Part shown: one piece after another, positions 414 to 24,586 of the stretch
How positions within the stretch are numbered: the first letter of the stretch is position 1
Layout of the letters: each line of letters starts with the position of its first letter
Virus record (IMG/VR): IMGVR_UViG_3300021255_002052
Location: 45,772-109,771 of that record
DNA length: 64,000 bases
Source: a virus
Lineage: Duplodnaviria > Caudoviricetes
Strand: one strand, 5' to 3'
Translations under genes and position numbers: made by a program
Notes under the pieces: generated by a model
The model's input: the letters and a program-made list of their open reading frames with translations, nothing else
Database searches by the model: none
Told to the model about the DNA's origin: nothing

Positions 414-875
414 ATGGGTAAACGAAGTAAATACAAAGTGGACATGTCTAATTCCGCGAAGAAGAAACGCACGGTCCACGACGAGCATACCGGGAAGGAT
501 ATCACTTTTGATAGTGCCATCGAAAAAAGGTACTATGACGAAGTTGTACTCCCCGGGTTTTTATCCGGTGAAATAGTCGACTACGATCTCTAGCGGCGGT
601 ACACTCTTCTACCCTCTTTCCGGAGGGAAAACGGAGAACTTGTAAGGGCTATTACCTATATAGCTGATTACGTGCTTAAGTTCGCTGACGGGCACGAAGA
701 GATCAAAGATACGAAAGGTGCGGGTTATCTAGTCGACCCACTGGCTCGCATTAAGCGGAAATTATTTTATCACGCATTCCCAGATCTCGATCTTGAATGG
801 ATCACTTGGACTAAGGCTACGGGTTGGGTTAACTGGGATGATTTCATGAAGGAAAAGAGGAATAAAAGGACATGA
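414..875 (+). CDS. DUF1064-family PD-(D/E)XK endonuclease, 153 aa with TAG=Gln
   Basis: MGKRSKY..TFDSAIEKRYY..GEIVDYDL*RRYTL..RAITYIADY..IKDTKG. TAG 591-593 sits at the family's conserved LQ position. Confidence 0.8.
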
Positions 876-1441
876 CAGTAAAAGAATTTATAGGAAAATA
901 TCATACGGCAAAGAAGGTCCCGGGAGGGGTCGAAACTTTTCTGGAACAGAGTCTGGTGACCAGATACGTTCCTTACCTAACGAAAAAGGTTATTTGTCAG
1001 AAAATCGTTGACGCCACTTATTACGTGACGGAGAAGAATGATGACGGTGTGGTCGTTAATCGGAGATTCCGTGTAGACTCCGCGAACACCTATCTCCTGT
1101 TCATCACTAGATTGATCGCGACGTATTACGGATTAGAACTATCCGAGAATATCGCCGACGATTACGATCTATTGAATCAGGAAGGGCTGATAGCTCCGGA
1201 AGACGGAGAATCAGTGACTCTGATCACCAGCATCCCGGCAACGGAATATGCGGAGTTCAAAGCGTTGTTAGATATGGCTAAAGCTGATATCACGGCTAAC
1301 GAATATGAGCCGGGTGCGTATATCTCCAATAAGATCAACAATCTCGGACTCATTCTCGGAACTGCTATTCAACCGATTTTGGATGCGGCGGGGATCACTC
1401 CGGAGGATATCAGGACTTTATTATTGAATTCGCGTAGTTAA
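872..1441 (+). CDS. Hypothetical late protein, possible tail assembly chaperone
   Basis: 189-aa ORF with ATGA overlap and TAA stop, two genes upstream of the tape measure gene. Confidence 0.6.
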   Translation: MTVKEFIGKYHTAKKVPGGVETFLEQSLVTRYVPYLTKKVICQKIVDATYYVTEKNDDGVVVNRRFRVDSANTYLLFITRLIATYYGLELSENIADDYDLLNQEGLIAPEDGESVTLITSIPATEYAEFKALLDMAKADITANEYEPGAYISNKINNLGLILGTAIQPILDAAGITPEDIRTLLLNSRS

Positions 1442-1449
1442 ACGCAGTC

Positions 1450-1484
1450 AGGCTCCCGTGGTGTCATAGCTACGGGGGCTTTTT
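1450..1484 (+). terminator. Stem-loop plus T-tract, loop TGTCATAG
   Basis: AGGCTCCCGTGG-TGTCATAG-CTACGGGGGCTT followed by T-run, right after the stop of the upstream gene. Confidence 0.7.
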
Positions 1485-1499: not shown

Positions 1500-2084
1500 A
1501 TGAATTTAGCAGGTTGGGCTGCTCGGTTAGAATAGAGAATAGAGGCGGGAAAGAAAATCGCGAACAAGAAAACAATACAGCTCGCTGCGAAAAAATCTAA
1601 GATGTTCGCAAAATATGCGGCAAAGGAGTTTTATAGTTCTTATGATCCCCTCTTTTATGGTAGAACTTATGATTTTTACAATCGACTTTTCATTATTGAA
1701 CCAAAAGAGGAAGAGATTTTTGTAAAGGCATCTTCTGCCGGTCTATGGGGGCATAGGGTATCTGGCGATTATATTTTAGAAGTTGTCGCTAATCAAGGAT
1801 ATCATGGAGGAGCCATGAGTGGTCCATCAGATTTTCACGGTAATTCGCATCCGGCACCAGGAACACCGTATTGGCGTAAACCAGCTACAGAATATGACGG
1901 TATCCCTCCATATTCCCTCTGGGGAAGACCCGCAGAGAAAACCGAGTCTCCAATAGAGATTTTTTTAAGGTATTTCCGTGCTGCTGAAAAGAGCGATTTT
2001 AGTGATTGCTGGAATAAGACTTTTTTGAAGTATGTGTATACAAAAAACTTTCAAGATTTCTTAAAGATTAAAATAGAGTTATAA
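1500..2084 (+). CDS. Hypothetical virion-associated protein, 194 aa with one TAG=Gln
   Basis: AGGAGG RBS at 1488-1493, ATG 1500 in frame with the track ORF 1602-2084, TAG 1533-1535, TAA stop. Confidence 0.7.
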
Positions 2085-2101
2085 CCGAAGGAGGTGGTCT
2101 A

Positions 2102-5100
2102 ATGAGTGAAGAAATTAGTTTAGTTAAAGGTACAATAGAGATTGATTCTTCTAAATCCGTTGAAGCTACTAATGCGGTCGTTGGTGCATTGAAGGAAATG
2201 GCGGAACAAGCTGGCCAGACAAAGAGAGCTATCTCTGATGTATTTAAAACGCTCAACAACGCAGGGAATAGAAAAGGTATTACGGGATATGCCGAGTCTA
2301 TGGAAAAGGCCTTAGAAGGTGTAGGAGAAACGGCGAAAGATGCTCAGGATCAAATAAGAACATTAAATGATTTTATGAAGACCACTTCTAAGGGTGGGAA
2401 ATTCCTAAAATCCAAAGAAGAATTAGCAGATGTTATTGCCGGTAGCCTTATGCCGCAAGCTAAAGGTTTCGCCAAAAAAGAAGACCGGTCAGGGTTTGGC
2501 CGTACAGCGGATACGCTAGCTTAGTATGTGAACGCATACGTAGCCAAAGGTGGAACTTTGGACGATTCTGATAGTGTGCTGAAAAAGGCATTAAAGAAAA
2601 ATGGTTTTGACCTTGATACTCTCATGGCGATAAGCAATGAAGGGAACGCCGGAGATAAAACAGTCGAGAATTTACAAAATATCTACGGTATTGTAGATAA
2701 ATTAGCCAGCACCAAACAGGTGGATCTAAGCGCAATTATCGATTCTAGTGCTTACCTTAAAGAGCTGCACATCATAGAGGCCGAAACTACGAGAACCATG
2801 GATAATATCATGGCAAAACTTGCAGGAAAAAGCAAAGGCCCTTCTGTCTAGAAAGATGATATCGCATCGAGCAAGACTTCATCACAGAGAAGTGCCGATA
2901 TTAAAAGATTCGCTAAGACTCTTCTGAATAGGGATATTCCTCTATCAGATGATGATAAAAAGTTGGCCGCGACATTATTAGGTGAAATTGAAGGTGAATT
3001 ACGGTCAAGTGAAAATACCGATCTACGAAATCAATTAAAGAATAAGCTTAAATTTAAAGGAAACTTCGAAGGCCCCGGGACTATGATGGACTTCTGGGAT
3101 GCATTAAGAGAAAACGCGGGTGATGGGTCTATTGATGTAGAAGAAGCCATAAAATCTATAGATGTGAAATACACTCAAAGAAAAAAATAGGCATTAGACA
3201 CGACGATCGCTAAGAAAGCTAAGAATGCCGCAGAAGAAGCTTTAAAGAGTGTTGATGGCTTAAACAAAGACCAGCTCAGATAGATGAGAGAAAAAATAAA
3301 TGGCATGCTAGATGAATCGATCGCAAAGGAAATAGAAGAAGCATACGATGAAAAAATGAAAGATTTTGAGTGGCTGACGGACGAAGAGATCCAGGACAGA
3401 TGGTTTAATGAACATACAGATGAGAGGGGAAAAGTCAAAGCTGGGCGCCGTAATGAAAGATTTGATGGCAGTAAAGGTGGCAAGAAAACGGAAAAAATTG
3501 GCGGAGATGCTGCGTATATCGATTATTTGACTAGTAGAGGAATAGATCCGTATGCCAGGGAAGGCTTTACCGGTGATCTAACAGACGAAGAAACCAACAA
3601 AAGAGCATTAGAATTGATCAAGTCAAGAAAAACGCTTAGGGGGTTAGGTGAACAAGCATCGAAAGCGTACGCTGAGCAGGAAACGGAAGCGATTGAAAAT
3701 CTTACGAATAGACTTCAAGAGGCAAACGATAAGGTAGCTGAATTAAAACAGAATGCCGCAAAAATGTTAGATGGAGATGGGACAACAGAGGAAATCAAAA
3801 ATATCATTAACGAATTAGATAATCTTAAAAGCGCTCTTGGAGAAATTTCTAAAGATGCATCAAGAGCCAAATTGACTGATCTGATCCCGGGATTTTATGA
3901 TATAGATTCAACAAAGGATGACTTGTTAGATTTAAGGTCTAACCTTAACAAAAGGTACGGAGAAGCTGAGAGAAAACAGCAGAGGGATGCTAATTTAAAG
4001 AAGGCTCGAGAAGCTTTCCAAAAAAACGCTAACATTGATCAATTCATGAAAGATGACGCATCTTTTGAAGATATCAAAAGAGCTATCAACGAAGAGAAAA
4101 CGGCAATAGAAAATCTGAAGAATCTACAGAAGCAAAATGGAAAAGAAACATGGAAATTTACTCCGGAGGAGCTCGGTGGCGATATAGATGCAAAGATAAC
4201 AGATTACACTCAAAATCTCTATACCCTAGCTGCCGCGCTAGATAAAGTTGCTACGGCCCAAGAAGAGGCTGCGGCAGAGACAGATAAAGCAGGGTCTTTC
4301 TATGGAGAAGCTAGTGATACGGTACTATCTGTAGCTGAGTAGCTTGGGGTTGCAAGGAAAGATAAGAACGGAAAACTATCTGTCGATGTTCGTGATATAG
4401 ACAGGAATAGAGGGTTTTTAGCTGGTAATGATTAGGCTGTCGCGTTTCTCGATATGCTAGAGAAATATGCGAGAAGGGATTCAGAGAAATTTGGATTCAA
4501 GGATTATACGGCAGACGACCTTAAAAAGAAAGTGTCCTCCGAAGAAAACGTTCGCGATGTACAGAATTATGTGGACGCCATCGAAAAAGGACTGGATCAA
4601 TCTTCTGAAGAATTCCAGTAGATTCAAGAAGCTTATAAACGCGCGGTCGAGAGAATTCAGAAATTTGGTGAAGGACTGTCCCATTTCAAGATCGACGATT
4701 ATTCGGACCCGAAACAAGTTCTGTCGGCTATAACGGATAAGAATCTAGGCCTCTCAGATTACGACATTGAAAAAAATAGCCTTTTAGAAAGAACACACTC
4801 GCTCGCGGAGAGAAGGAAAGATATAGGGAAAACAGCAAGTGACCAAAGTGAAGAGAATATCCGGAACAGAATAAAAGCGTATAAGGAATTGCTACCCGAA
4901 TACCAAGCGCTTCAAAAAGATCTCGACGCGTCCGAATTTAAGGACGATTTTCTTGCGCCAAAAGGCGGGATAAAAGAGTTTAAATACCTGGCCGGTGAAA
5001 TTCAAGGCTTGATGGACCTCATCAAGAGGATGGAAGCTGATCTCGAAAAAGTAACTGGTGAGAATCCGTTTAAAGATCTTACAGATGAGGTAGATAATTA

Positions 5101-8100
5101 TAAGAAGTCGCTAGAGGATGTAGCAAAAACATCGGAAACGGCACTGTCGAAAAAAACTATAGACTCTGACGGGATCAAATAGGAAATAGAAAAGATCAAT
5201 GAAGCACTAAAAGAATATGCTGAGATAAAAGAGAAAGTTGAAAAATCCGAGTCTGCTGATGCTGTAAAAGAAAGAACGGGATTTGGAGCGATTGAGGACA
5301 CCACTAAAGCCCTCGAGGATCAAAAGAAAAAGTTAGAGCAAAAGTTCGAAGTCCAACAAGAATATGAGAAGCTTCAAGCTCAAGCTCAGAAGCTAAGGAC
5401 AGATCGAAACGCTATTAGCACCACGCAGAAAGATTACACTCAGGCAGAAGACGCAGATGAGGCGATCGGAAAACTTAAAAATCTCCAGGAAGAATACGAA
5501 AAGCTTAAAGAAGCGGTTGTGGCATACCAGAAAACCAGAGCTGATGCCGGTGATATAGCGTCGGGATAGGAATTCGATCTTGGTAAAAGACTTGGTGTCG
5601 ATCAAATCGATAATATTATCAAGCAGATAGATACCAATATCGCGACACTTTAGAAACGGGCGGATAAACTACGCGGAGTAACTCCTGAACAGGAAGCCCC
5701 ATCTTCCACTGGCTCTACTTAGTCAAGAGGTGAAGAGACAAAGAGTACGGCTTCTTCTGATACAAAGGAAGAGGCTAGAGCAATGGAACCTCTCGAAAAT
5801 GAGGTTAGGGCGGTCACTCGGGCGGTAGATGAAAAGACTTAGGCCTTTGATCGTGAAGCGACGGCTGTTGGTGCAAATGTTATCAACGAAGTGGCTGACC
5901 TTGAGAAACTCCAGAAGATCCTCACCGAAATCGCGAAGACAACCGCTGATGTCACATAGTTCCCGGAGGGTTTTGTCAACCAGCTAAAAGCGATTGGTAA
6001 GATCGACATAAAAGATGGAGTTCCTGCTAAGATTGAGGAACTTGCGGAAGCACTGACCAAGCTGTCAAATTCTCTCAATAGTATCTCAGGCGAAGGTGCC
6101 GCAAATATATAGCATCTTAATACCCTAATTAATTCAGCACAGGAAGTCGGTGGAGTTGTTAGTGCTCTCGCGAAGGTAAGCGAGAAGAATAACGGTGCAT
6201 CCGCTACTAACGAAGAATAGCTGTTCAAAACATATGATCGTCTGAAATACGCTATGACTGATTACTACGCAGTAATCGATGAGGGTATAAAGAAGGGGTA
6301 TTTAGATAAGGACTTCTGGGATAAAGCGGGTGTTACAGACCCGACGGATTATGAAGTCAGTGATCAAATCCCGTCCGACCCGGGATATTATAACAGATTC
6401 GTGGCGGCAAGATCAAAAGCCCGCAAGATGAATCAAGAACTTGAAAAGAGTGTCTCCAACTATAATCAGAATGCCGAATCTCAGTACGATTATGATTCTC
6501 TGGCTAAAGGAGCGAGGGAATGGGCACGGGCAAATCAAGACGCCCTCTCTTCTATCGAAGAATTGTCTCGGGCAGAGAAAAAGAGATCAGATATTGAACG
6601 AGAACTAGTCACGAAGGCTGATCAAAATAAAAACTCTGAATATTATAAAAAGCTGACGGATGATTTAAAGGAACAAGAAGATGCTATAGAAAAAATAAAA
6701 GCAGATATTAAGTAGACTTTCGCTGATCTGGGCTCTGATGGTGGGTTTGTTGGCGGAGATGTTGATTCGTTAATTAATGAAGCTATCAGCTAGGCCGGAA
6801 CTAAGAATAAGGAAGCCGTAGCTAATACCATTGCCAAATATAAGGATGAGCTACGTGGCCAATTAGACGAACTTGTCAAAGAATACGGATTTAACAAGAA
6901 CGATAATAGAATCAAACGACTGAATACGGCCATAAGCGGAGTGACTGATCTGACCGGTCGCAACCTCGTAGAAAATCAGATCACTGACCTGATGGAAACT
7001 AAAGACAAAAAAGCTGCGACATTAAAAAGATATTCCAAGGAATATGCAGAACTTAATCGACTTCAACTAGAACAGGCGAAAACCGATTAGTCGCAGGATC
7101 CTTAGAAATTTTCCGAGGTAACCACAGCTATTCAGGCACAGCAAAAAGTCGTTGCTGAGCTAGTCAATGAATACAAAAACCTGTCCACCGTTAAGAGAGA
7201 CGCAGAACGGGAACTGGCTGCCGAGGCGAGGACTGTTCGGACAAAGCAGGGAAATGTTTCTGACGAAGTAAAAGGCTATAAGGATGAGGCGACGAAGCAG
7301 CTTGATAAGATAGCTCAAAAGCATAATATCAAAAAAGACAGTTCCGAGTATGACGCGTTAGCCAGACAGATTTCGAAAATTAAAGGGAAGACCCAACAAT
7401 CTAAGATTTTATCTAAGATAGATGATCTGGATAAAGATTATACTCGTAAAACACAGGCTAAAGATAATAAAGAGACTGTTGAGAAAAAGCTAAACGATAT
7501 TATAGAAAAGCGCAAGTTAGACAGAAATGGTATCTATAAGGGAAGAATTGAAGCTCTGGAAGCCTCCAAAACGGAGACTAAGGAAGAACTGAACGATACA
7601 TTAGATGAGATAGACAAATTCGATGCCGAAATTAAAAAGAGGCAGGATAAGGGCAAGAAAGCTCTATCTCATTACAATGAAGCTTACACTAACCAAGCAA
7701 AATTAGAAGCTCAGGCCGTCGCCACTACTCCTCTCGATGCAGGATATGACCAACTGAACAATGCGTTGGATGAGGCGAAGAATAAGACTGCTGCTCTACG
7801 CGCAGAGACTCTATCCTATGTCGACGTGATTCCTAATATCGGAAATTAGATGAAGGATGTTGAAGCTACGGCAGATGCGACTTACGACAAACAAGCCGCC
7901 ATTATGAAGCGCTATAAATCTGAAAAAGAAGCCAGAGAACAGCTTAACTATAAATACAAAACAACCGACTATGGTAATCCTAATAACACGTAGGCGAAAG
8001 CTCAGAGAGACGAACTTCAGAGGCTAGATGGGATTCTTCAGGAATTAGACAGCCGTTACGTCAGCTTGGCCGCCTCTGCCGGACAGGCAGCGACTGCTAC

Positions 8101-11100
8101 CCAACAGATGGCCGACGCGAAAGCAAGTATCGGAAAAGATAATATCAATAAGCTTCAGGGTAAAATTGACGAGTATAAAGACTCTGCGAATAAACGTCTA
8201 GCTGACACGCTCTCTTCTACCGGGATTTCAACTACCGGTGCATACAAGAATTTCATAGAGAATATTAAGGGACAGATCGGAAACATCGACTCTGCTTCTT
8301 CTCTAAAAGACGTAGTTTCGAAGATAGACAACTTTAAAACCTATATTTCTAAACGCTAGACGAAGTCCACTGGTCTGTTAGATGAATATAAATAGGCTAT
8401 GACCCTATAGTCTCAACTTCAGGCTCAATTATCCACAATGAAACCTGGAGATGCGGGATTTGACAAGATCAAGCAAGATCTAGACGACGCGACAAAGAAA
8501 ACCAGCGAATTACGTACATAGCTCGAACGTTTAGACGATGTGACGCCGGATATTAGTACGAAGCTGGATACCTTTGACAACGAGGCGAAGGCCACGGCTC
8601 AAGCTGAGAAAGAAAAAGATTTACTGGATCAGATTACTAAAGCAGAGGAAAAACGTGCGAATGCCCAGAAAAGGCTAGTATCTACCAACACGGATGCTCC
8701 GAGTAGCGCGAAGGTTTACGCAGAGGCTAATCAGGAAATTTCGACCCAAACAGAATTAATCAATAAGCTCACTGAAGCGTATATGAACCTAACGGGCGGA
8801 ACTACTGCCGCTCAAGATACCATCGCCAGAACAATAGCTGGAGCGGGCGCTGATACCAAGGCCAGTATGGCGCAGTAGATTGAACGGTATAAGTCTCAGG
8901 CGTACAATGAATTGAATAGCTCGGCTATTACCGGTTCTGATTTCACGAAAATATCTGATAACATATCTAATCTCACAGGGAAAACAGATCTAGACAAGAT
9001 TCTCCAGACAATTAAAGAACTTAATAAAGAAGCACAAAAACCGACTGAACAGCAGAATAAGCTAAAAGAATATGTGGAAGCTGTTAAGGAACAGGAAAAA
9101 GCTCAACTGCACTTGAATGCAATAAACAAAGACACAAACCCGTATGCATGGGATGCGCAAAAGAACGCTGTAGACCAACTCACACAGAAGGTGCGGGACC
9201 TCGGTGAGGAATATGTCAAACTCTCTTATAATGAGGAAGTTGCGAGGAATGCCCTAAAGTTTAACGCCGGAGAAGCGGTAGCTGAGGTTGATCGTAACTG
9301 GAGTGGTAAAACTACAGCCAATTTCCAAGACGAGACACATCAATATTTTCTTCGATTCCTATAGAAATATGGGAATATCTCAGACAAAAATCAGGATTAT
9401 CTGAATATACGTAATAGAATTAGAGGAATAATGGATGCCACATCGGCGAGTGGTGTCAGAACGGATATTGATGAATGGGCTAATCGCTTAGACCAGGAAA
9501 GAAAAGAACGAGAAGAGCTATACAGCAAATTATCTACTAAGCAATGGAAAGATTATGGGTATCTACAGGGAAAACTCGAACTTGCCGGAGGAGATACGTC
9601 GAAACTAACTTCCGACGAATTGAGCAGATACAACGAATATCTACAAGTCTTATCAAAAATCGAACAAAAGATCGGTGATATCACTAAAGGGGTGTCCGGA
9701 CTAACATTACCGGAAGGTATAACTGACGGCGAGTTTTCTAAGATAGACAAAATGCTCGACAATGCCAAGGAAATGCAGAAGTCGAAAGCATTTGAAATCA
9801 AGGTAGGGAATAACCCGGAACTTCAGGGTTATCTGCTTCAAATTAATAACCTAAGAAATGTGATCGACGGTATAGGTCCAATAGCAGATAGAGCTGAAAA
9901 TGAATTGGCGGAGCTAAATGCTCAATTCGCTAAAAAAGGCGACATGTCTGGCTTCACGGAAAGAGCGCAAGAGGTCGTATCTAACCTGAGTAAAATTCAG
10001 AGAGTGATGCCGGAAGAAACCACTAGAGAAGGTGGTGTTGCTGCGGCACGGAGCATGATCGAACAGAGAAGTGGTGGTACTGCTACCGGCTATAAGGTAG
10101 ATTATAACGGCAACACGTCTACTGTCACGGCTGAATATAGAGACCAGAACAATATGATCCGTACTCTTTCGGCCTCTTATAATGAACTTGACAGGAGTAT
10201 TAGTCTCACGCAGACAAGGGCTGTATAGGGATAGACCATAATGCAACAATTCGCCGAGGGGCTCAAGCAACGCATGATGAGCCTCGGCTAGTATCTTCTG
10301 ACTTTTGTGTCCTTCTACGATATTATTAATATGGCGAAGTAGGCGGCATCGATCGTGACAGATTTCGATACTGCTTTTACTGAGATGAGAAAAGTATCAG
10401 ACGAATCGGTTTAGTCGCTAAAGCAATTCCAGGAAGAGTCTTTCGCTATCGGAGATTCAGTTGGAACGACCGGATTACAGATCGAACAGTCCACCGCTGA
10501 ATTTATGAGACTTGGATAGGCTCTAGAAGAAGCAAAAGAATCCGCAAAGAATGCCAACATACTTTTTAACGTATCAGAATTCGATACTATAGATGAAGCT
10601 ACGGAATCCCTAATCGCGATGTCTTAGGCATTCGACGATGTGAGCCAGACTGAAATCATTGATTCGCTCAATAAAATTGGTAACGATTTCTCAATCAGCA
10701 CATCTGGACTATCAGAAGCCCTCCAAAATTCCGCATCAGCATTAAGGACATCTGGAAACGATCTAGCTGAATCCCTGGCCATCCTAACCGCTGGTAACTA
10801 GGTCGTGCAAGATCCGAATAAAGTCGGGGCTGGCGCTAGAACAATCGCTCTGCGTCTGTCTGGAACTGATCAGGCGAAAACTGAGTTGGCGGAATTGGGT
10901 GAAGAGACCGAAGGTGTCATTACTACGGTCTCAAAACTCAGAGATACAATAATGAACGCCACGAGGGTATCTTCCAATTCCTACAAAGGGTTTGATATTC
11001 TAAATGAGAATGGGAATTATAAGAGCACCTATGAAATAATCCAAGGCATTGCCGACATATGGGAAGAGATCGGTCAGAACGATATCGTGACTGGAAATAA

Positions 11101-14100: not shown

Positions 14101-17100
14101 TTCCGGACTTGGAACATATTTCGATACTATAGCAGAAAAAGCGAGAATTAATTCTAACGTATTTGATGATTTACGCAAAAAGATAATTGATCTTTCGGAT
14201 TTATCATCTGTAAGCTGGGAAGATATTATAGATTCTGACGCTTATAAGAGTTTGTCTGGTTACACGAGAACAAAACTAGCTGAAACTGGAGCTCCGACAG
14301 AGGTCCTAGCTAAAATTATACTCAGAGGAGATATTGATCTCAATACTCTTGAGCAGGATATCCAAGAAGGTATCGCCCAGATCGAACACCGGAAATTCTA
14401 GGCTCAGATATCTGTACTGACGACTTACAACTCCGACATTTCGTCTATTAGAGATGCGGAGGCCGAAATCGCTCAGGGTACGATGACACCGGACAAAGCC
14501 CTCTCTCTCGCTTCTAGCTTACCGGAAGTGGCAAAGGCGGCGGAAGAACTAGGCCTCACGTTTACAGATATGAATGCCGACGAGATCTTAGACGATGTCG
14601 ACAAACTATAGGTTGCACTGGCTAATGCGAAATTTGACAGACTAGAACGACTCCTATCTGATAAAAATGTCGGTCGAGCCGAGAAACTCTCTGCCATAGC
14701 TAACGCGGATCTTTCCGGCAATACGCGTCAAAATGATTATCTCGCCAGAGGAGGCCACGTACAAAACGAATGGTTAGCTAATAGGCTAGCTGGCGAAGGC
14801 GAATTTGAGAATACATACGGTTTTGGCCGAGAGTCTGCGTACCAGACGGTGGTCGGCGTTTAGATGATGCTCGACGCAGGGTCTTTAGAAAATACCGAAG
14901 CTTCTGTAGAATAGGCATTCTCGGCACTAGAGCCTAAGGTCGCGATCTAGTTGGCGGAAGGTTCGATCAGAGATATTGAACAGCAGATTACCACGATCTC
15001 ACAGGTCGCTAGCGACTAGATGGCAAACGGATACGTCACTTAGGAGCAGTTAAATACCCTGAAAGCTGCCGGTATCGATTATTCGCAGATGCTCGAAGTC
15101 GGTGCTAAAGGCTGGAAACTGAACACGGATAAAGTCCAGGAATACGAAGATGCTCTCCGTGCGGTTCAGGTGGCTCAGTCGAAACAAACCGAGAATATCG
15201 CGAAAGATAGGGTGGCTGCCTTAGATAAATAGATGAAGGAACTCCTCGGAGAAGGATCGGGGTCAGCTAAAATAGCAGAAGAAGCCGGTAAGAACGCCGC
15301 GAATAATTTTGTCAGTGGCATGTCTAGCGAGCTCGAAACTGCGGCCAGAGGTGGAACTACAGCATACGGAAAAGCAGAGCAAGAAACCGCTAAGACAGAT
15401 ATCGCGGAGCGCATTCAGGCTGGTGCATCAGCACAGGATCTATTGGATGAAGGATACGGATTCCAGGATCTGGCGGCTGCTCAGAATTATCTCGATCTTT
15501 CTGATGCCAGGGCTGAGCTGGAAGAAACAATATAGAAGCAACAGCAGTACCAGATGGCTACAGCGGCCTCTATAGATATAGCCAAACAGTTCAGCGAAGC
15601 AAGTTCTGCGGCCAACGACCGTGATCTGGCAGAGACTGTTAGCGGCGGAGTTAAAGGTGCGTTAGAGACGAAGAATAAGGGCTGGTGGGGAGATAAGAAT
15701 CTTCAACAGTATGCGAAGTTCTTTGCGGATAAAGACACACCTCTTTATAAGGCGCTCGATGAATTTGAATCATCTTGGAATAACGTCTGGTCGAAGTATT
15801 ACGGTTCCGATGGAGAGATAACCGACGACGGAGTTCAGAAGTTTATTTAGGACTCAGTCGGAAAAGGACTTACTCTCGATTCGGAAGTTGGGGAAGATGG
15901 TTATACGTTCGACTGGCTCTTAAAAGACGTTAATATAGATGAACTGGCTAAATCCTGGGATACTAGTACCGAAAATATTATCGCTCTTCTCTCCGCTTTT
16001 GAAGACACTCGTTCTTGGGATCAAGTTGACTGGAGCTCGATATTTGGAAGCACTGACGAAATAAGTGATTCTGCTTCTGCAATGGACGAGTACATAAGCA
16101 ATTTAGAGATTCTTCAGAAATATAATCCTGAAATGGATATGGGGTAGTACTTCTAGACGGCAGCGGAAGGACTCAAAACTCTCTAGGCGAGCGATCCAAA
16201 TGCAGACATACAAGGGTACGTAGATAGGCTTAATCAATTAGCGCAATTGACTGGTTAGGATTATGTGGTAACAGTTACAGACAGTGGCGATTTCGAAGTC
16301 GTCGACTCGAAGCTCGCTGAAATGCATGAAAAGATTGATCAAATCAATAAGAGCAATATTACCATTAACGCAGAAGGGAAAGTAGAAACCGATTCTGAAA
16401 CAGAAAAACAATTAAATGCACTAGCCGATTACGCAAACGGTGATGGCAAGGAGATGATGCTCAAGTGGGGATTTAAACCCGCTGAGAATGGTCAATTTAC
16501 GCCGGAGGACTTAGCCAAGTAGATCATCGAGTTCCGCTGGAAATTTAGCGAAAAACCGGAAGTAGAACCTGGAGAAACTGGCAACGGTAAAGGATTTCAT
16601 AGGGGTCCAGTAAAGAAAAATGCTAAAGGGGAACTCATAACCGGGGCTGTAGAATATACAGATTCGGGGGTAACCGAACCTGAAACCCATGTCATTGAGA
16701 CAGAAACACCTACAGATCCGATGGAAAACCTCAACAGTGGCGTAGATAATATATATAGCGGAATTGAAACAGCTAATGGATACCTGGCGACGATCGCAGG
16801 GAAAGCAGAAAAAGACTCTGAAAAAGATGAAGGATCAGAGCCTAAAACTGACGAGTCTGATACACCAAAAGACAATAGCGACAGACCTGATAAACATGGC
16901 CCAAGCACTACTAAAGAATATCGCGATCAATTAGTGTCGGAAGGTAAAGTCGCAGAGGATACATCAACCGTATTTGAAAATTCAGTAAATGAATTATAGG
17001 AAAGCGCGAAAGAAGCCTACGAAGAAGCACATGGTATCACAGAAGGCTTGCCATTAGTTTAGAATGCCATAAATGCAAATACATAGGCACAAGTTGATAA

Positions 17101-20100
17101 CACCACCAGTGAAGAGTCAAAAGAGAACATTCCTATCGATTTGCCGTATAATGAAGAGCCAGGTGTTGAAACAGGTTTACTTGGACTTACTCATCCTATC
17201 GGAGTTCCTTCATTTGGTCATGAGGTGTATGCTTCCGAAAACGAAGGTGGTGATACAAGTTTCGTTGAGACCCCCACCGAAACCGAACAAACCGCTGAAA
17301 ATGTATCTGTAAGTGGTCAAGTGGTTTAGGTCACAGATGATACCAACACTCCTGGCACTCTATCCAAAGGTGAGAGCCTTACATCGGAACAGAGATCGGA
17401 GTACTCTTCCACTGCCGAAACCCCAGAAGGTGAAGCATACGAGCCGGAATCTCAAACTTCTAGAGCAGTCATCAACGCAGACGTTGCTGAACTTAACGCT
17501 GATCTTCCTAACGAAACCGATCCTAATTATCAGCCGCCTTCTGATGATTTCAATTATCGATTCATAAATCCGTCGAATCCTTTCACATACGGTCAAGCAC
17601 CGCAACCCGCTCCGGGACAATCGCTCCCAATGAATTAGGGGTTACAATTACAAACCGTCGAAGGGACTACCACACCGGGCGAATTATCCGCTTCTGAAGT
17701 TTCGGTAAGCGGCGGATCCGTAACAGTATCTGGTCCAGTCGAGATACCTACGAGTACACCGACGGAGACTTCGACGTTCACTCCCACTCCTACCATTACT
17801 TCTGCCCCGGCTCCGGAAGCACCTACCACTGAAGCGACTACGACGGTTACGGTAGAAGCAGACGTTACCCCAGCGGAAGAAGCCATAGCGGGGCTAGAGG
17901 ATAAAACCGTAACAATTGGAGTATAGATAGAAACGCCGTAGCCAGAGGAGTTTTAGGGCGTTCTTGACCGAGTGGGTAATTCTGGTCCGCAGTCAGTATA
18001 GGTAGATGCATCTGTTCAAGATGGAGCGACTGAAGGTTTATAGGAAGTTGAAAATAAAGCCAATGAGGTAGACGGCTTAAATCCGACAGTCACGGCAGAA
18101 ACTTAGGATAACGCTAGTAGTGTTCTGGGCAATATAGTGAGTAGCGCGTAGGAAGTTGATGCTCAAACTCCGAATGTGGGCGTTGAAGCGACGGATAATG
18201 CGTCCTCTACTTTGGATAAGGTTAAAGGCCTGGCTGACGACGTAGAATCGACAGATCCAAACGTGAGTGTTAGTGCTAGTACAGGAAATACTATAAGCGT
18301 TCTTACGGATATTCTCAACAAAGTTAATCAACTGCCACCGAGCAGAATGATTAACATAACGACAAAATATACCACAATCGGAAATCCTCCTGGGCAAGCA
18401 TCCGGTACCTTCCACCCAGCCCAAAACCTCGGCACTGTTAAATCAGCATTTGCTGATGGTACTGTTGGAAAGCTATGGGATGATTATTCTAGACAAAACA
18501 GTCTAGGTGCATATGCAAGAGGAACCGATGTAACGCTCAGTCGTAACCAAGACGCATTGGTAAACGAGGTCGGTATTGAATCCATCGTTCGTGACGGTCA
18601 ATGGATGCTAATGCCAGGTGGCAATGGCGTTCATGTAGAGAGCCTCAAACGCGGCGACATAGTTTTCAATGCCAGTTAGACTGCTGACCTAATCAAACAC
18701 GGTAAGGCTTCTGGGCGCGGCAAAGTAGCATACGCATCTGGTACTGCTACCAGCCCAATGCCCGCTTTCGTAAAAGCGACCGAAGAGCCGACCAAAGTAC
18801 GACACAACAGAAATATCGTCCATAGCACTAACGGCAAAGGTCACGTCGAGATAATCAGAGATGGCAACCTCGTCGATCAAATCAGCGGCGTTGTCTCTAA
18901 GATGGCTCACGAAGTCGCGGGTGCAATAGAAGATGTTCAAGATAATAGCCCCGATTCGTGGTCTGACGGCTACGGAGTGACGCATCTGATCAACGCGCAA
19001 TCTGCGGCTATTCAGGCTAACACTGCGGCGACGCAGAACAATACCAAGGTTAAGAATCAAGAAGCGACCTACGTAGACTTCGCGGAAAAGGTCATGAATC
19101 GCCTGTCCAAAGCGACGGCGAGACTTCAGAACCGCATCACGGAGTTTACCACCTATACATTTAAGAAGAACACCTTAAGATCCGAACTCGATTCTCTCGC
19201 TGACGAAATCGCGGCGGCTTCTGCTGCTCTCCCGGTCTATGCGGAGTACTTAGAGATGCTCCGTAATACCCCGATTCAGCACGAGTCCGGTTCTGATAGT
19301 GGCGGAGGTGGCGGCGGAGGATCCGACTCCGGTTCTGATTCTAGCGCCGATGATACGGCCGAAACAGATGCCGAGGCAGCTGCTACCAGGCTCGAAACAG
19401 CTAAGAGTAATCTCAAAGCGGCGAAATAGAACCTGAAGCAGAACTATAAACTTTCCGACGAACAAAGTAAGAAGCTTAAGAATAATAAGAAGATCGACGA
19501 ATCCGAGATTAAAGGATCGAATAAGAAGAACGCGGCTTCCGTATATAACGATGCGCTGAAGCAGTATAAGCAGTTAAAGAAACAGGAAGATACCGCGACC
19601 GAAACGACTGCGAAAGAAACGAGTAAGTCCGTTAAGAATACTGAGAAATCCACTGCCGAAGTTGCTCAGACTAGTAGTCAGACGGCTTCTAATAGTGGGG
19701 CTATCGTATCTAGTGCGGAAGCTGTACAGGCGTCCGGCTACGATATTGCGTCGTATACGGCATTGGGCGCTGCAGCTGGTTAGGATACTCTCACGGTGCT
19801 TCAGACAATTGCCGGATAGATAGCTGGCCTATCTACTCAGATTGCCGATATTAGCGTCAATGTTAACGTGAATGGCGGATCTGTGAGTACAAGCTCAGGC
19901 GGCGGATCTAAAAAGTCTGGAGGTGGAAATAGCGGGGACGACGGTGACGACAGCGGAAATGGTGGCGTCGACGATTATTCCTGGAGTAAGAAGAATCAAA
20001 AAGCTATCGAAAACGGTGAAAAGATCGACATCTCCACCATCGATCCTTCCAAGAAAGATAAGATTAAAGCCGCCAAGCAATATAATAAATCTCTGAAGAA

Positions 20101-23100
20101 TGGCGGAGGATCTAGTAGTTCTGGTTCCAGTAATAAGAGTTCCGGCGGTAATTCTGGCGGAAATGTTAAAAGTAAATCCGGAGGTGGAGGACTTTCTGTC
20201 TCTAGCAGTAACAGCGGTTCCGCGAGCCCCGAAGAAAAGCAGTTCAAGAAAGAAATGAAGGCGGCGGCTAAGGAAGTTAAGAACTCCTATTCGCTCACTT
20301 CTAATTAGAAATCTTCGATTAAGAAAGGTGAGACTTTATCTACTAAGGGTATCACCGATCCGACGAAGAAGTAGGCTTTCCAGACATATAATCAAGCCGT
20401 AAAGAAATATAACAATGCTAAAGTTTCTCGAAGCGTTACGAGCAATAGTAATAATTCAAGTTCAAGTTTCGATAACTTCGGACCTAACATGGATTACATC
20501 AACAAAGTTCAGTCTTCTCTGGGCAAAGGCGGCGGAGGAGGCGGAGGAGGCGGTTTCCAGAATGCCAGGATTATGATACCAGAAGGTCTTGCCACAGGTG
20601 AAGAGACCACTGAAATAGATCCGGCATTTGCTGGTGATTATCTTGGTGCGTACGCTGATCTCCTTGAAGATAATAATCTGGTCGATATTCTTGGGCTAGA
20701 TAAAGATCTGGCTGCCGCTATAGAGGAATATGATGAGTTCTTAAGCAAACTTGAAGACACTAAAGATACTCTCGAATAGCTCTATCAGCAAGTCGTATAG
20801 GTCTGGGATTAGATGGCGCAAGCTCCGCTGGAAGAAGCTGACCGTCAGATCGAACAGCTAGAATTAGGAATAGATGGTCTAACTGCGGCTCTCGGTCGGT
20901 TAGATAGCGCGATGGCGGGTGGTTCTACACTCAACGTTCTCGACACTATCAGAGAGACATAGAAAGCTGCGGCAGATTATACCGCGACATCTCAAGCGGT
21001 TCTCGATGCTATCCGTGGCGTAAACGCTGATAAAACAGAAAACGCGGCTAAACAAGTAGAAATTAGACGGTGGGCGGTTGACGAAGCCAAGCAGGTTCTC
21101 GATGACGCATAGACCGCCATGGATGACCTAACTCGCGAATTAGATACGAAGATCGCTGAATATAAGAAAATTCGAGAAGAAACCGAAGTGAAGGTAGCTT
21201 AGGCCCAGGGCGAAGTGACTGCCACTTCTGCTGCTGTAGCTGCTCTGGAAGAAACAGATGCGATAAAATATTATAATGATGTCGGCGCATTGTGGGGCAA
21301 AGGTGCGCTACTTATGAGCGGGAATATTGGTATCGCTGGAACTGTTACTGGCTACGATCCTCGCGTATGGAATGAGATTAAGTGGCGGGGTGATGACTGG
21401 AAGTTTATGCCCGGCGGCCCGCTAGAAGTTGGATAGGAAAGAGCTGGAGATCCATATGCTGATCAGAAGCCGCAAACATCCGGTGGAGTTATAGATGAAT
21501 ACAAAGCTGCTGTTTAGAAAGCCGGGGAAGCGACGGCAGAACTTACCTAGCAACAGACGGCGCTTAGGGAAGCTACCTATATGCTCGCCCAGGCGGAACT
21601 CGACAAAACTCTCCGCGAGGAGATGTAGGCAGAGATTCTCCAGCAAGCTAAACTCGCATATGATTAGGCTCAGACTGCGTTAGCGTAGGCCGAATCCGAA
21701 TACGCGGCTCAGTACATCCAGGAAATCGTAGATAACTTCGGCGCAGTAGAAGAAGCCTTCGAATCTGTACTGAATTATCAGAAAGCTCTCGACGAAAACG
21801 AAGAACTATACGTCAAAAACGCAGAAGATCGCGGAAACCGTATCACGGCGGCGATGCGTCAGTTCCAGTCAGGCAATCTTATCGGACAAACCGCGACGCT
21901 AAGAGCAGAAATCGCGGCGCTGAACGAAGAACTGTCTGGTGATAGGCTAGTCTACGGATCTAAGGAATGGAACGACCTGATGTCCCAGATCCTGGATAAG
22001 GAGACGGAACTTAACGATCTACTGAATCAGCAACATAGTATTCTGCTTAATATTCTCTCCGACGTGAAAGAACATTACGGTGTTCTGATCGATCATCTGG
22101 AGCAGGTTAATAAGCTGAACGATGCGTGGATTGATGCCGCCAAGGCTATAGGCGATTACGAGACGGAGCTCTCCTACGTATAGAGATATGCGGAACAGCA
22201 GGGACTCGTTAATCTGTATCTACAGCAGTCGGCAGATGCGTAGGAACAGTTTAATAACTTGGTTGCAAGCGGAGAACTGATCGCTGGTACGGATGAATAT
22301 ATAGCCAAACAGTCAGAGGTTCTGAGTCTAATTAACGATGCCAAGGATGCCCAGAACGAACTTCGCCAGATTGAAGCCGACCGTATCCAGTATACTATCG
22401 ACCGCTACGAAGAGTTACTGGAAAGAACCGACAACTACGTAGATATTATTCAGGCTCTCGGGTCTCTGATTACTGATGCTGCTAAATTCGATTATAAGAC
22501 TGGCAATCTGACCGATATGGGACAGGCGACCATCGCTATAGAGATGACGGCTTGGCAGGAAAACACCGAGCAGTTGCGCGACGTACTCGAAGAACGGCAG
22601 AGACTGCGCGACGAATTCGCTAGTAATCCGGATTTCGGAGAACAGGCATTTGCGGAAGCCCTCGACGCTAACGATAAACAGATTCAAGAGTATCTGTCTA
22701 ATATCAAGGGTGCGGCGGATCAGATCGTTGAAATCGGAATAATGATAGCCGAGAAGCAATTAGCGGCGATTAATAAGACAATAGATGCTAGGAAAAAGGC
22801 GCTCTAGCTGGAGCAAGATTATTATAATTACGACAAGTCGTTAAAGAGTTCGACGAAGGACATAGAGCTGTTAAATGCTTAGATTTCGGCCCTTGACGGC
22901 GTAGCAGATGCTGAGAGCCGCGCAATGAAGGCTCGTCTCGAAGCTCAGAGGCAAGAACTTCAGGAAGACTTAGATGATACTGTAAGAAATCACGTCGTTT
23001 CGCTCCAGACTGAAGGCCTCACCGAGATGCAGGAGCAGTTAGCGGACAACCTCGACGAATGGCGCAACGAGCTGTAGGGAGACATTCAGAAGCAGCTTGA

Positions 23101-24586
23101 TTATATTAACTCTCTCAATCTGTCTGCTAGTAACATCGAGGCTGCTCTCAACAAGCTAGTGTTAGGTGCTTCTAACGGTGTGGCTACTCTCTCCGATGTT
23201 GAAACGGCGGTTAAAGAAAACGGTCTTCTGACCAGTACTGTATCCGACGTTAATAAGCAGTATGAGGAAGGTCATGCTAATGCGGTAGCTACTAAACAGG
23301 CTCAAGATGCTGGTGCCGAATTGGCGGCTCGTATCCAGGGCGCGATCAATACCCTCGGGACTAGTGTCTCTACTACTAACATCGACAAGTTTACCAAGGA
23401 GTGGGCGGAAGTCGCAGATAAGACGAACTATAATATCGGATCTACGGATCAGACCGGTAAAGATATTTAGGCTCTAATCGATTAGCTGAAGAGCGATGTA
23501 GCTCAGAATCAGTCTATGAAGAAATGGGTAGACGCGATCGCCGCCGTTAAGAATCCGACTTATAACTACTCTCAGGCGCAGATCGACGCGATGGCGAAGT
23601 CTGGCAATGTGGCAAAAGCGAACTATAGTTCCGTGATAACCAACGCAAAAGCGGTCTGGGATAAGATGTCCGCCGAACAAAAGAAAGCTTATAACGAAAT
23701 CGCGGGGTCCTTCCACGCCGGTAAGACTGTCGATCAGATGCTGGCCACCTACACTAACGCTGTAGATTCTCTGAATAAAGCGGTTGCTACGAACGTCGAA
23801 AAGGCGAAGGCTGAAATGGCGAGAAAAGCTGCCGAAGAGGCTAAGCGTAAAGCCGAAGAAGAAGCCAAACGCAGAGCGGCGGAAGAAGCTGCGAGAAAGA
23901 AAGCCGAGGAAGAAGCGAAGAAAAAGGCTGAAGAAGCTGCCAAGAAGAAGGCCGAAGAAGAGGCTAAGAAGAAGGCCGAGTAGGAAGCCCAGGATCCATG
24001 GGGACTAAGAAGATTCATCATGGGCGGTGGCGGAGGTGGAAGCTATGGAGATGGTGGATACTCCAATATGCTATACGGTGTCCAGTCAGCTCCTGCCGCT
24101 ACGACCACTAGTTCTTCTAAAGAAAAGGTTTATGTGCTAACTCCGAAGGGTGATTATAACCTGAAAGAAGGCGAGATCCTTGTAGACACGAAGAAGTCCA
24201 AAAAGAAAAAAGCTACCGGTACGAGATACGCTCAGAAAGGCTTAACTCTCACCCAGGAAAAAGGCGGAGAGATCATCACCACAAAAGATGGTGTTCTTGT
24301 GCCGCTTAAAGCCGGTGATGGAGTGATTCCGGCTCATTTGACGGATAAATTATTCAAGATGGCTATGAATTATCCGAACATTGGGCAAACTATCACTCTG
24401 CCGTAGGTACAACCTGCGCAACAGAATCTTACGGTGAACTATGGTTCACTTCTTACGGTTAACGGAGATGTAGATAAAGAGGCTCTTCCAGGTCTCCAAG
24501 ACATTCTCAAGCAAGCATATCAGTATACTAGTAAACAATTAGCCATAGACGCTAAGAAAGCAGGAATGCGTCAGGCAAGATATTAA
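2102..24586 (+). CDS. Giant tail tape measure protein, 7494 aa, dozens of TAG=Gln
   Basis: About 30 track fragments share one frame. In the gaps I translated by hand (most of them) the only stops were TAG, until TAA 24584-24586. GGAGGTGG RBS. TP901-type TMP core at ~10360-11330 (DTAFTEMRKVSDE..STAEFMRLG..IIDSLNKIGNDFSIS..VQDPNKVGAGARTIALRL). Confidence 0.92.
23810..23990 (+). repeat. TolA-like (K/R)KAEEEA tandem repeat inside the TMP
   Basis: RKAAEEAKRKAEEEAKRRAAEEAARKKAEEEAKKKAEEAAKKKAEEEAKKKAE. Confidence 0.85.

What the first reader, a model, noticed from the sequence alone, without database searches (positions are those of the whole stretch)
2102..24586. A hidden 22.5-kb gene: 7494-aa tape measure protein
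Seen: a single frame across 35% of the window. The recognisable TMP core starts only at about residue 2750, after a long charged coiled-coil extension with degenerate helical repeats (~6500-9500). Established: tail length scales at roughly 0.15 nm per TMP residue, and the very long-tailed Thermus phages P74-26/P23-45 have TMPs of about 5000 aa. Inference: either a tail approaching 1.1 micrometre, or a processed polyprotein with non-ruler cargo. With dozens of TAGs it is also the gene most sensitive to suppression efficiency, so it could set a sharp threshold for virion assembly.
Basis: partly seen in the sequence, partly recalled or inferred. Interest (0 to 1): 0.75.

Follow-up and report, generated by a model that had tools for sequence, protein, structure and literature searches.

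The report
Giant 7,494-residue phage tape measure gene
A large gut-type phage that reads the stop codon TAG as an amino acid encodes its tail-length "ruler" as one 7,494-residue protein, which predicts a tail of roughly one micrometre; the gene is real but belongs to an already populated, unpublished family of giant rulers.

Summary
Observation confirmed. Window 2102-24586 (+) is one frame of 7,494 codons with 96 in-frame TAG, no TGA and only the terminal TAA. The other two frames carry 251 and 636 TAA/TGA.

It is the tape measure protein (TMP) of a TAG-recoded, SPbeta-like siphophage on a 109.8-kb IMG/VR contig, about 60% complete. PF10145 lies at aa 2783-2992 and phrog_4211 at aa 2691-3835. 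A Dit-like gene and a Tal gene follow.

It is one gene, not a misassembly. Independent assemblies are colinear with it. Two near relatives carry a group I intron at window nt 18588|18589 whose exons rejoin in frame to give the same protein.

No enzyme cargo was found. The first 1,200 aa are predicted 71% helical at low confidence. They have no homologues except code-11 fragments of this gene and one 89-aa fragment.

It is not unique. Sixty-four metagenomic relatives have 4,176-7,628 aa, six of them at least 7,000. This scan had already noted giant TMPs, including one of 7,473 aa, on other DNA.

At the SPbeta ratio of 0.14 nm/aa the tail would be about 0.9-1.1 micrometre. That matches or exceeds the published record, but it is an untested extrapolation. 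Full-length yield scales as readthrough^96, so decoding must be near complete.

The parts
872..1441 (+). YomO-like protein (189 aa), a conserved member of the SPbeta-type tail module upstream of the TMP
   Evidence: 33% identity, E 3e-30, to the gene of relative L004 that carries PF27287 YomO (weak)
1500..2084 (+). 194-aa ORF directly upstream of the TMP, function unknown; strong SD, one TAG at codon 12
   Evidence: Sequence read; no Pfam or PHROG hit
2087..2096 (+). Shine-Dalgarno GAAGGAGGTG, 5 nt before the TMP start codon
2102..24586 (+). Whole TMP gene: 7,494 codons plus TAA, 96 in-frame TAG
2102..10171 (+). N-terminal extension (aa 1-2690): charged, Cys-free, helix-rich, lineage-specific
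   Evidence: 34% KRDE, 7% P+G, 0 Cys. AF2 on aa 1-1200: 71% helix, 0.5% strand, mean pLDDT 51.6. No homologues among 1.84e9 representatives except own code-11 fragments and one 89-aa fragment. No family hits
6554..9079 (+). Degenerate repeats of about 236 aa within the N-extension (aa 1485-2326)
   Evidence: Masked self-BLAST, best pair aa 1806-1991 vs 2042-2232, 28% identity, E 2e-17
10172..13606 (+). TMP core region (aa 2691-3835) matching phrog_4211; PF10145 PhageMin_Tail at aa 2783-2992 (nt 10448-11077)
   Evidence: phrog_4211 E 6e-54; PF10145 46 bits vs cut-off 33.2; 25-33% identity to TMPs of SPbeta (YomI), Sundance, PBC2 and others
11819..11875 (+). Only TM-like hydrophobic segment (aa 3240-3258), just after the core
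   Evidence: Kyte-Doolittle 19-residue mean 2.03
13607..16501 (+). Middle helix-compatible region (aa 3836-4800)
   Evidence: P+G mostly below 12%, no domains; colinear with P0002 and P0003
16502..18001 (+). Acidic P/T/S-rich low-complexity region (aa 4801-5300), probably not helical
   Evidence: P+G 17-20% and GSPTN 45-50% in aa 5001-5300
18257..18766 (+). Conserved module M1 (aa 5386-5555) with a small beta-rich mini-domain at aa 5476-5538
   Evidence: Shared with most giant relatives. AF2 with alignment gives pLDDT 81-93 for segment residues 176-238, five strands plus one helix. No solved-fold match
18588..18589 (+). Empty homing site: relatives L006 and L007 carry a group I intron with a 191-aa ORF exactly here (inside codon V5496)
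   Evidence: blastn breakpoints 18588/18590; RF00028 at 44-45 bits, E about 2e-8, just below Rfam's 50-bit gathering score; exons rejoin in frame to IVRDG
19439..21001 (+). G/S/N/K-rich low-complexity region with poly-G and poly-GS runs (aa 5780-6300)
22049..23101 (+). Conserved helical module M2 (aa 6650-7000), colinear with the C-terminal part of phrog_4211
   Evidence: Shared with relatives; phrog_4211 positions 2257-2363 match aa 6884-6993, E 0.001
23807..23992 (+). E/K/A-rich run (aa 7236-7297), single-alpha-helix type
24212..24583 (+). Conserved C-terminal module (aa 7371-7494), presumed docking end for the tail-tip complex
   Evidence: 60% identity to the C-terminus of P0003, 35-49% to P0010-12 and P0019; 96% to L006
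24652..25575 (+). Dit-like distal tail protein (307 aa)
   Evidence: PF20753 DUF6558_C, 22.8 bits, just under the cut-off; the same position holds DUF6558 proteins in L004 and L005
25563..29372 (+). Tal-type tail protein (1,269 aa)
   Evidence: PF06605 Prophage_tail at 42.8 bits; phrog_6211 minor tail protein

Best explanation
The ORF is the tape measure protein gene of a TAG-recoded, SPbeta-like siphophage of a probable Bacillota host. It is one gene, translated from ATG 2102 through 96 TAG codons to TAA 24584-24586. TAG is read as Gln on alignment evidence, and the phage carries its own tRNA with a CUA anticodon. The protein is a family-typical TMP whose N-terminal part and middle part have each been expanded by more than 2,000 residues of fast-evolving, charged, Cys-free, mostly helical sequence. 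Inferred from lambda, TP901-1 and SPP1 biology: the conserved C-terminal module docks in the Dit/Tal initiator, and the YomU-like tube protein polymerises along the extended TMP until its N-terminus is reached. Length is therefore set by most of the chain. At the within-family ratio (SPbeta: 320 nm for 2,285 aa, or 0.14 nm/aa) this gives about 1.05 micrometre for all residues, or about 0.9 micrometre if the roughly 1,200 low-complexity or non-helical residues do not count. Chains that terminate early at any TAG lack the C-terminal docking end and cannot seed tails. Tail output should therefore scale as (per-codon readthrough)^96, which requires near-complete reassignment late in infection. Shown: the ORF, TAG=Q at conserved sites, TMP identity, synteny, single-gene continuity, absence of recognisable cargo, and the existence of a family. 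Inferred: ruler function of the whole length, tail length, docking, and gating.
For: ORF statistics. TMP identity: PF10145 above cut-off, phrog_4211 E 6e-54, tblastn to annotated TMPs of Bacillota phages. Synteny TMP - Dit-like - Tal - fibre proteins. Capsid, YomW, YomU tube and YomO homologues lie upstream. Single gene: the architecture is colinear with P0003 (6,912 aa), P0010-12 (7,515-7,628 aa), P0019 (7,464 aa) and P0168 (68% identity across aa 5039-6940). The group I intron in L006 and L007 splices in frame to the same sequence. phrog_4211 matches colinearly at the core and near the C-terminus. There are fewer terminator-like sites than in shuffled sequence. No cargo: no DxDGD or HExxH motif, no Pfam, PHROG or PDB sequence hit outside the core. 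AF2 predicts aa 1-1200 as 71% helix. N-extensions across the clade share composition but not sequence. The near relative L006 has a spliced length of about 7,400 aa despite only 45-50% identity in the core and middle. TAG=Q. A tRNA(CUA) is present at 51 bits against RF00005. SPbeta tail of 320 nm (PMC8270828).
Against: No virion, EM or proteome data exist. AF2 confidence for the N-extension is low (mean pLDDT 51.6), and aa 1-495 show short helices only. About 1,200 aa are low-complexity or P/G-rich, and M1 holds a small beta domain, so not all of the chain is a helical ruler. P23-45 shows that a giant TMP can carry N-terminal cargo (PMC10770324). No G/GT-type frameshifted chaperone pair was recognised upstream. 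The CUA tRNA is 92 nt with a long variable arm, unlike a normal tRNA-Gln, so the inserted residue is not proven. The contig is only about 60% complete.
Confidence: 0.6

Rival explanations
1. Partial ruler: only the part from the TMP core onward (aa 2691-7494) measures the tail, giving about 0.5-0.7 micrometre. The 2,690-aa N-extension has another job, such as ejected cargo, a head-proximal plug, a DNA or membrane escort, or a piece removed by proteolysis.
For: P23-45 gp96 carries a functional RNAP in its first ~1,200 residues (PMC10770324). The N-extension has no homologues and no TMP-family signal. Its first ~500 aa are predicted as short helices at low confidence. Core start varies from 1,360 to 4,500 aa among relatives.
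Against: No catalytic motif, domain or beta-rich fold was found. Composition is uniform and ruler-like across the clade while sequence is free to drift, which is the opposite of a conserved enzyme. Total length recurs in classes near 5,490 and 7,460-7,630 aa although N-extension length varies.
Confidence: 0.25
2. Polyprotein: the chain is cleaved at its low-complexity G/S- or P/T-rich linkers (about aa 4800-5300, 5780-6300, 7300-7370) into a TMP proper plus separate tail or ejection proteins.
For: Long flexible linkers separate conserved modules. Some relatives (P0002, P0016, P0017) end at module M1. M1 plus M2 occur in proteins of about 2,400-2,700 aa without PF10145. From established knowledge, C-terminal processing of TMPs is known for lambda gpH and T5 pb2.
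Against: No protease domain or recognisable cleavage motif. Most relatives keep all modules in one ORF in the same order. The short forms may be cut by introns or contig ends, as shown for L006 and L007, where the apparent split is an intron.
Confidence: 0.12
3. Artefact: a chimeric assembly or a decayed gene that merely stays open under code 15.
For: The contig is a metagenome assembly, about 60% complete. Low-complexity and repeat regions are prone to misassembly.
Against: Zero TAA/TGA in 7,493 codons against 251-636 in the other frames. Independent ENA and Logan assemblies are colinear at 68-97% amino-acid identity across the junctions. Code-11 fragments of the same gene recur in many samples. 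Conserved modules lie at both ends.
Confidence: 0.02

Closest known systems
Bacillus phage SPbeta YomI and phrog_4211 / TP901-family tape measure proteins (PF10145)
   Same: Same family by profile (phrog_4211 E 6e-54; PF10145 above cut-off). Same gene order (tube ... TMP - DUF6558 Dit - Tal). Shared capsid, YomW, YomU and YomO-type neighbours. A hydrophobic segment follows the core.
   Different: 3.3 times longer (7,494 vs 2,285 aa). More than 2,000 extra residues before the core and more than 2,000 between the core and the C-terminal module. No lytic transglycosylase or peptidase domain detected. TAG-recoded.
[quoted passage not shown]
   Same: A giant TMP that defines an extremely long siphovirus tail, with a long N-terminal region ahead of the TMP-typical parts.
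   Different: No sequence relationship was found. The Thermus N-terminus is a two-barrel RNA polymerase with a DFDGD motif, whereas this N-extension has no such motif and is predicted all-helical. This protein is 50% longer. No metallopeptidase motif is present.
TAG-recoded gut phages such as phAss-1 (TMP 3,149 aa, PMC10607447) and the recoded clades of Borges et al. (bioRxiv 10.1101/2021.08.26.457843)
   Same: TAG to Gln recoding concentrated in structural genes, a phage-borne CUA tRNA, and a TMP broken by TAG under code 11.
   Different: The TMP is 2.4 times longer with 96 TAGs. No release factor gene lies in the 110 kb available. The CUA tRNA has a long variable arm.
Group I introns in TMP genes of Bacillus cereus-group prophages (TMP-IVS1-3, PMC2504315)
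   Same: Near relatives of this gene carry a group I intron with an ORF inside a conserved TMP motif.
   Different: The window gene is the intron-less allele. The insertion site (module M1) and the 191-aa ORF were not compared with the Bacillus introns.

Membership tests
TP901-family / PhageMin_Tail tape measure protein (PF10145) | PF10145 domain above Pfam's gathering score | tested here: met
   46 bits vs 33.2, aa 2783-2992
TP901-family / PhageMin_Tail tape measure protein (PF10145) | Gene lies between the tube/chaperone genes and the Dit and Tal genes of a siphovirus tail module | tested here: met
   YomU-like tube and YomO-like genes upstream, Dit-like and PF06605 Tal downstream
TP901-family / PhageMin_Tail tape measure protein (PF10145) | Predominantly alpha-helical extended protein | tested here: inconclusive
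   AF2 on aa 1-1200 gives 71% helix but mean pLDDT 51.6. Composition proxy: 63 of 75 100-aa windows are not flagged as low-complexity and 12 are. The rest was not folded.
TP901-family / PhageMin_Tail tape measure protein (PF10145) | Tail length proportional to TMP length | not testable with these tools
   Needs EM of virions or length variants
TP901-family / PhageMin_Tail tape measure protein (PF10145) | Upstream chaperone pair made by programmed frameshift (G/GT type) | tested here: inconclusive
   The two upstream ORFs (872-1441, 1500-2084) do not overlap and have no chaperone family hit. Slippery sites were not searched.
SPbeta-like TMP (YomI type, phrog_4211) | Profile match over the core and the C-terminal region in colinear order | tested here: met
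   Profile 552-1509 matches aa 2691-3835 (E 6e-54); profile 2257-2363 matches aa 6884-6993 (E 0.001)
SPbeta-like TMP (YomI type, phrog_4211) | Embedded muralytic domain (YomI is annotated as a lytic transglycosylase) | tested here: not met
   No SLT, M23, lysozyme or peptidoglycan-binding Pfam hit at E up to 1 in any segment. Some relatives carry PF01471 or PF08230.
RNAP-TMP fusion of P23-45 type | DxDGD metal-binding loop and double-psi beta-barrels in the N-terminal part | tested here: not met
   No DxDGD; the only DxDxD is DLDKD at aa 1775 in a helical repeat. AF2 gives 0.5% strand in aa 1-1200. vRNAP_dom_2 scores only 11.8 bits, E 0.32.
Code-15 (TAG=Gln) recoded phage gene | In-frame TAGs at positions held by Gln in standard-code homologues | tested here: met
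   66 of 123 aligned residues are Q, close to the CAR control. The TMPs of relatives L004 and L005 have 0 TAG.
Code-15 (TAG=Gln) recoded phage gene | Phage-encoded suppressor tRNA with CUA anticodon | tested here: met
   Genome 28566-28657; ARAGORN anticodon cta; RF00005 at 51 bits. It is 92 nt with a long variable arm, so its charging identity is untested.

The most novel reading that the evidence does not exclude
This phage and the other lineages with TMPs of 7.2-7.6 thousand residues build tails longer than 1 micrometre, longer than any tail described for a virus. Here the 96-TAG ruler would also act as an ultrasensitive all-or-none gate that allows tail assembly only after the code switch is essentially complete.
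Probability: 0.35. Interest if true: 0.65.

Novelty: new member of a known kind. Interest (0 to 1): 0.45.

Why it matters
If most of the chain acts as a ruler, this clade would set a new upper limit for viral tail length. The published record is 'nearly 1 micrometre' for P74-26, with a 5,002-aa TMP. That would raise questions about how a tube of roughly 1 micrometre, about 250-280 rings by my own inference at ~4 nm per ring, is assembled, kept intact and used in a gut or rumen habitat.

The gene is also a stringent natural reporter of recoding efficiency. With 96 TAGs, 95% readthrough per codon yields 0.7% full-length protein and 99% yields 38%. Ordinary suppressor-level competition with release factor 1 would therefore not suffice.

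On the practical side, standard gene calling splits this gene into about a hundred pieces. Public databases hold it only as fragments cut at the TAGs, so giant TMPs of recoded phages are systematically missed.

Tried and rejected
- **RNAP or enzyme cargo in the N-extension.** Rejected: no motif, family hit or beta-rich fold.
- **M1 and the C-terminal module as duplicated copies, implying a TMP-TMP fusion.** The pairwise BLAST is not significant (E 0.13), so I dropped the idea.
- **A genuine split gene in relatives.** P0071 looked like a separate 1,909-aa protein, but the gap is a group I intron that splices in frame.
- **The search for related loci in viral contigs.** The core segment found no confirmed relative, and the whole-protein alignment was too long for the tool.
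- **The look-up of encoding contigs for P0002 and P0003.** Both exceed the 5,000-aa limit.
- **Fold search of the M1 model.** Foldseek gave no hit with E below 0.4, and VIA-align matched only generic helical hairpins at Z about 8 or less.
- **PDB sequence searches of aa 2651-7494.** Nothing beyond an E/K-rich low-complexity match.
- **Release-factor gene (PF00472) in the contig.** None found.
- **The record behind L006.** It is not held, so the relative's N-extension could not be fetched. The last homologue search did not return its 5,462-aa piece.
- **Local Pfam copy.** It lacks the PF27xxx SPbeta families, so homology of the upstream genes was shown by tblastn against L004 and L005.
Full report
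**1. Observation**

With TAG read as sense, window 2102-24586 (+) is one ORF of 7,494 codons with an ATG start. It holds 96 TAG, no TGA and one TAA, the terminator. The other two + frames of the same stretch hold 251 and 636 TAA/TGA, so chance is excluded. The previous in-frame TAA is at 2069, and the ATG follows GAAGGAGGTG by 5 nt. Under table 11 the longest piece is 352 aa.

TAGs are spread evenly along the gene (KS p = 0.18). Their density, 12.8 per 1,000 codons, is ordinary for this phage's late genes. At conserved alignment columns, TAG codons face Gln in standard-code relatives: 66 of 123 residues overall, and 12 of 12 at position 5526. That distribution is close to the CAA/CAG control.

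**2. Genome context**

The window is bases 45,772-109,771 of a single 109,771-bp IMG/VR virus contig with a CheckV completeness estimate of 60%.

- Genes before about 29 kb have few TAGs.
- A tRNA with anticodon CTA sits at 28,566-28,657 (RF00005 at 51 bits).
- The TAG-rich late block follows: TerL, portal, capsid-like, YomW-like, YomU-like tube and YomO-like proteins, and then the giant ORF.
- Downstream come a Dit-like protein (PF20753, just under cut-off), a 1,269-aa Tal (PF06605) and fibre-type proteins.
- No release-factor gene lies in the 110 kb available.

**3. Identity**

PF10145 PhageMin_Tail scores 46 bits (cut-off 33.2) at aa 2783-2992. phrog_4211 ('tail length tape measure protein') matches aa 2691-3835 with E 6e-54. 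It matches again, colinearly, at aa 6884-6993 against profile positions 2257-2363. tblastn of the core hits annotated TMPs of Bacillota phages at 25-33% identity, including SPbeta YomI, Sundance, PBC2 and Thrax2.

Standard-code relatives L004 and L005 carry the SPbeta-specific families YonB, YomW, YomU_Tube and YomO around their TMPs. The gene is therefore the TMP of an SPbeta-like siphophage, and the host is probably a member of Bacillota (inference).

**4. One gene, not a join**

- Giant relatives are colinear over the whole post-core length: the core, module M1 (aa 5386-5555), module M2 (aa 6650-7000) and the C-terminal module (aa 7371-7494). This holds for P0003 (6,912 aa), P0010-12 (7,515-7,628 aa) and P0019 (7,464 aa). 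P0168 is 68% identical in one stretch across aa 5039-6940.
- Two near relatives that also read TAG as Gln, L006 (ENA, 123-kb contig) and L007, appear split at first sight. The gap is a group I intron (RF00028, 44-45 bits, E about 2e-8, just below Rfam's 50-bit gathering score) carrying a 191-aa ORF.
- The intron sits exactly between window nt 18588 and 18589. The 5' exon ends in U, the intron ends in G, and the exons rejoin in frame as I-V-R-D-G, identical to the window protein. The window holds the intron-less allele.
- L006's spliced gene is about 7,400 codons (5,462-aa piece minus 29 read-in codons, plus about 1,967), although its core and middle are only 45-50% identical to the window.
- Terminator-like sites inside the gene are fewer than in shuffled sequence.

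**5. Architecture**

| Region (aa) | Character |
|---|---|
| 1-2690 | N-extension: 34% charged, 7% P+G, no Cys; a ~236-aa degenerate repeat at aa 1485-2326 |
| 2691-3835 | TMP core, followed by the only TM-like segment at aa 3240-3258 |
| 3836-4800 | Helix-compatible |
| 4801-5300 | Acidic, P/T/S-rich |
| 5386-5555 | Module M1, with a confidently predicted ~60-aa mini-domain (five strands plus a helix, pLDDT 81-93) that holds the intron site |
| 5780-6300 | G/S/N/K-rich, with poly-G runs |
| 6300-7300 | Helical, including M2 and a 62-aa E/K/A run |
| 7371-7494 | Conserved C-terminal module |

Relative to the 2,625-position phrog_4211 profile, the protein has gained about 2,100 residues before the core and about 2,300 between the core and M2.

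**6. Cargo or ruler?**

P23-45 gp96 shows that a giant TMP can carry an N-terminal enzyme: a two-barrel RNAP at aa 327-1124 with a DFDGD motif (PMC10770324). Nothing of that kind was found here.

- There is no DxDGD or HExxH motif.
- No Pfam or PHROG family appears beyond coiled-coil noise in nine sub-segments, with Pfam scanned at E up to 1 and PHROGs at E up to 0.1.
- There is no PDB sequence match.
- AF2 (single sequence, mean pLDDT 51.6) predicts aa 1-1200 as 71% helix and 0.5% strand, with helices of 25-65 residues from aa 496 onward.
- Against 1.84 billion representative proteins, aa 1-1200 match only code-11 fragments of this same gene (99-100% identity, cut at the TAGs) and one 89-aa fragment at 52%.
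- N-extensions of other lineages share the composition but not the sequence.

This pattern fits a length-constrained, sequence-free spacer better than an enzyme. By a crude composition proxy, 12 of 75 100-aa windows (about 1,200 aa) are low-complexity or P/G-rich.

**7. Predicted tail length (inference)**

SPbeta has a 320-nm tail (PMC8270828) and a YomI of 2,285 aa, which gives 0.14 nm/aa. Estimates at 0.14-0.15 nm/aa are as follows.

| Residues counted | Predicted tail length |
|---|---|
| All 7,494 | 1.05-1.12 micrometre |
| Without the ~1,200 non-helical residues | 0.88-0.94 micrometre |
| From the core onward only | 0.67-0.72 micrometre |

**8. Recoding load**

Full-length yield equals e^96, where e is the per-codon readthrough. 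That gives 0.7% at e = 0.95, 14% at 0.98 and 38% at 0.99. Tail assembly starts from the TMP C-terminus together with the tip complex (established for lambda-like siphophages). Prematurely terminated chains should therefore be inert rather than giving short tails (inference).

**9. Not unique**

A word-seeded search of 5.8 billion proteins found 64 relatives of 4,176-7,628 aa that share the core. Six have at least 7,000 aa and six have 6,000-6,999 aa. Many cluster near 5,490 aa, and five lie at 7,464-7,628 aa. Core start in these proteins ranges from about 1,360 to 4,500 aa.

L004 and L005 use the standard code, with 0 TAG in their TMPs. Among 50,697 GenBank phage records, only one has M1 and M2: an unannotated, uncultivated human-faecal contig, where they lie in a 2,722-aa ORF.

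The held literature gave no TMP above 5,002 aa. The published TAG-recoded phage phAss-1 has a TMP of 3,149 aa. Introns in TMP genes are already known (PMC2504315). Earlier notes of this scan, which are unchecked AI notes, report similar giant recoded TMPs on other DNA, including a 7,473-aa five-intron gene. My results agree with them independently.

**10. Verdict**

The gene is real, correctly identified, and remarkable for its length. It belongs to a known kind and to a populated family, so I rate it a new member of a known kind. The tail of more than 1 micrometre remains an untested extrapolation.

Noticed in passing
L006:8461-9978 and L007:~13387-14905 (equivalent to window 18588|18589): Near relatives carry a group I intron (RF00028, E about 2e-8, just below Rfam's gathering score) with a 191-aa ORF inside the conserved M1 motif GIESIV|RDGQW of the TMP. 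The window has the empty site.
   Followed up: yes
L007:281-3621 and L007:3892-5896: The same relative has two more large insertions inside the TMP core, between aa 2901/2922 and at aa 3010/3011. They carry 387- and 449-aa ORFs with faint to weak DUF723, CapR and DUF4379 signals, so they are probably further introns with homing endonucleases. Rfam did not flag them.
   Followed up: partly
window 18588 (relatives L006, L007): Identity to the window jumps at the intron site: L006 goes from 50% upstream to 79% downstream, and L007 from 83% to 97.5%. The nuclease-bearing intron therefore marks a recombination boundary inside the TMP gene.
   Followed up: partly
genome 28566-28657 (L001:566-657), upstream of the window: The CTA-anticodon tRNA is 92 nt with a long variable arm (class-II shape, as in tRNA-Leu, Ser or Tyr), unlike a normal tRNA-Gln. 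Alignments still favour Gln at TAG sites, so its charging identity is open.
   Followed up: partly
window 1452-1484: An 8-bp GC-rich hairpin (GCTCCCGT / ACGGGGGC, 12-nt loop) followed by TTTTT lies between the YomO-like gene and the next ORF. The ORF starts at ATG 1500 behind AAAGGAGGGG, so this is a possible attenuating terminator just upstream of the TMP.
   Followed up: no
L006:15169-15882: In relative L006 the last 53 codons of the TMP (96% identical to the window) lie in a different frame from the preceding 1,909-aa piece. This is an indel, an assembly error or a frameshift in the low-complexity region near the C-terminus.
   Followed up: no
window 2102-24583: The 7,494-aa protein has no cysteine at all, and the N-extensions of relatives have 0-0.1% Cys.
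   Followed up: no
proteins P0002-P0065 and P0168: Lengths of giant relatives cluster near 5,490 aa (more than 20 clusters) and at 7,464-7,628 aa (5 clusters), although the start of the core varies. This suggests preferred tail-length classes.
   Followed up: partly
L008:15969-24137 (MT835469.1): The only GenBank phage record with modules M1 and M2 encodes them in a 2,722-aa standard-code ORF. Proteins of about 2,400-2,500 aa with M1 and M2 but no PF10145 are common in metagenomes.
   Followed up: no
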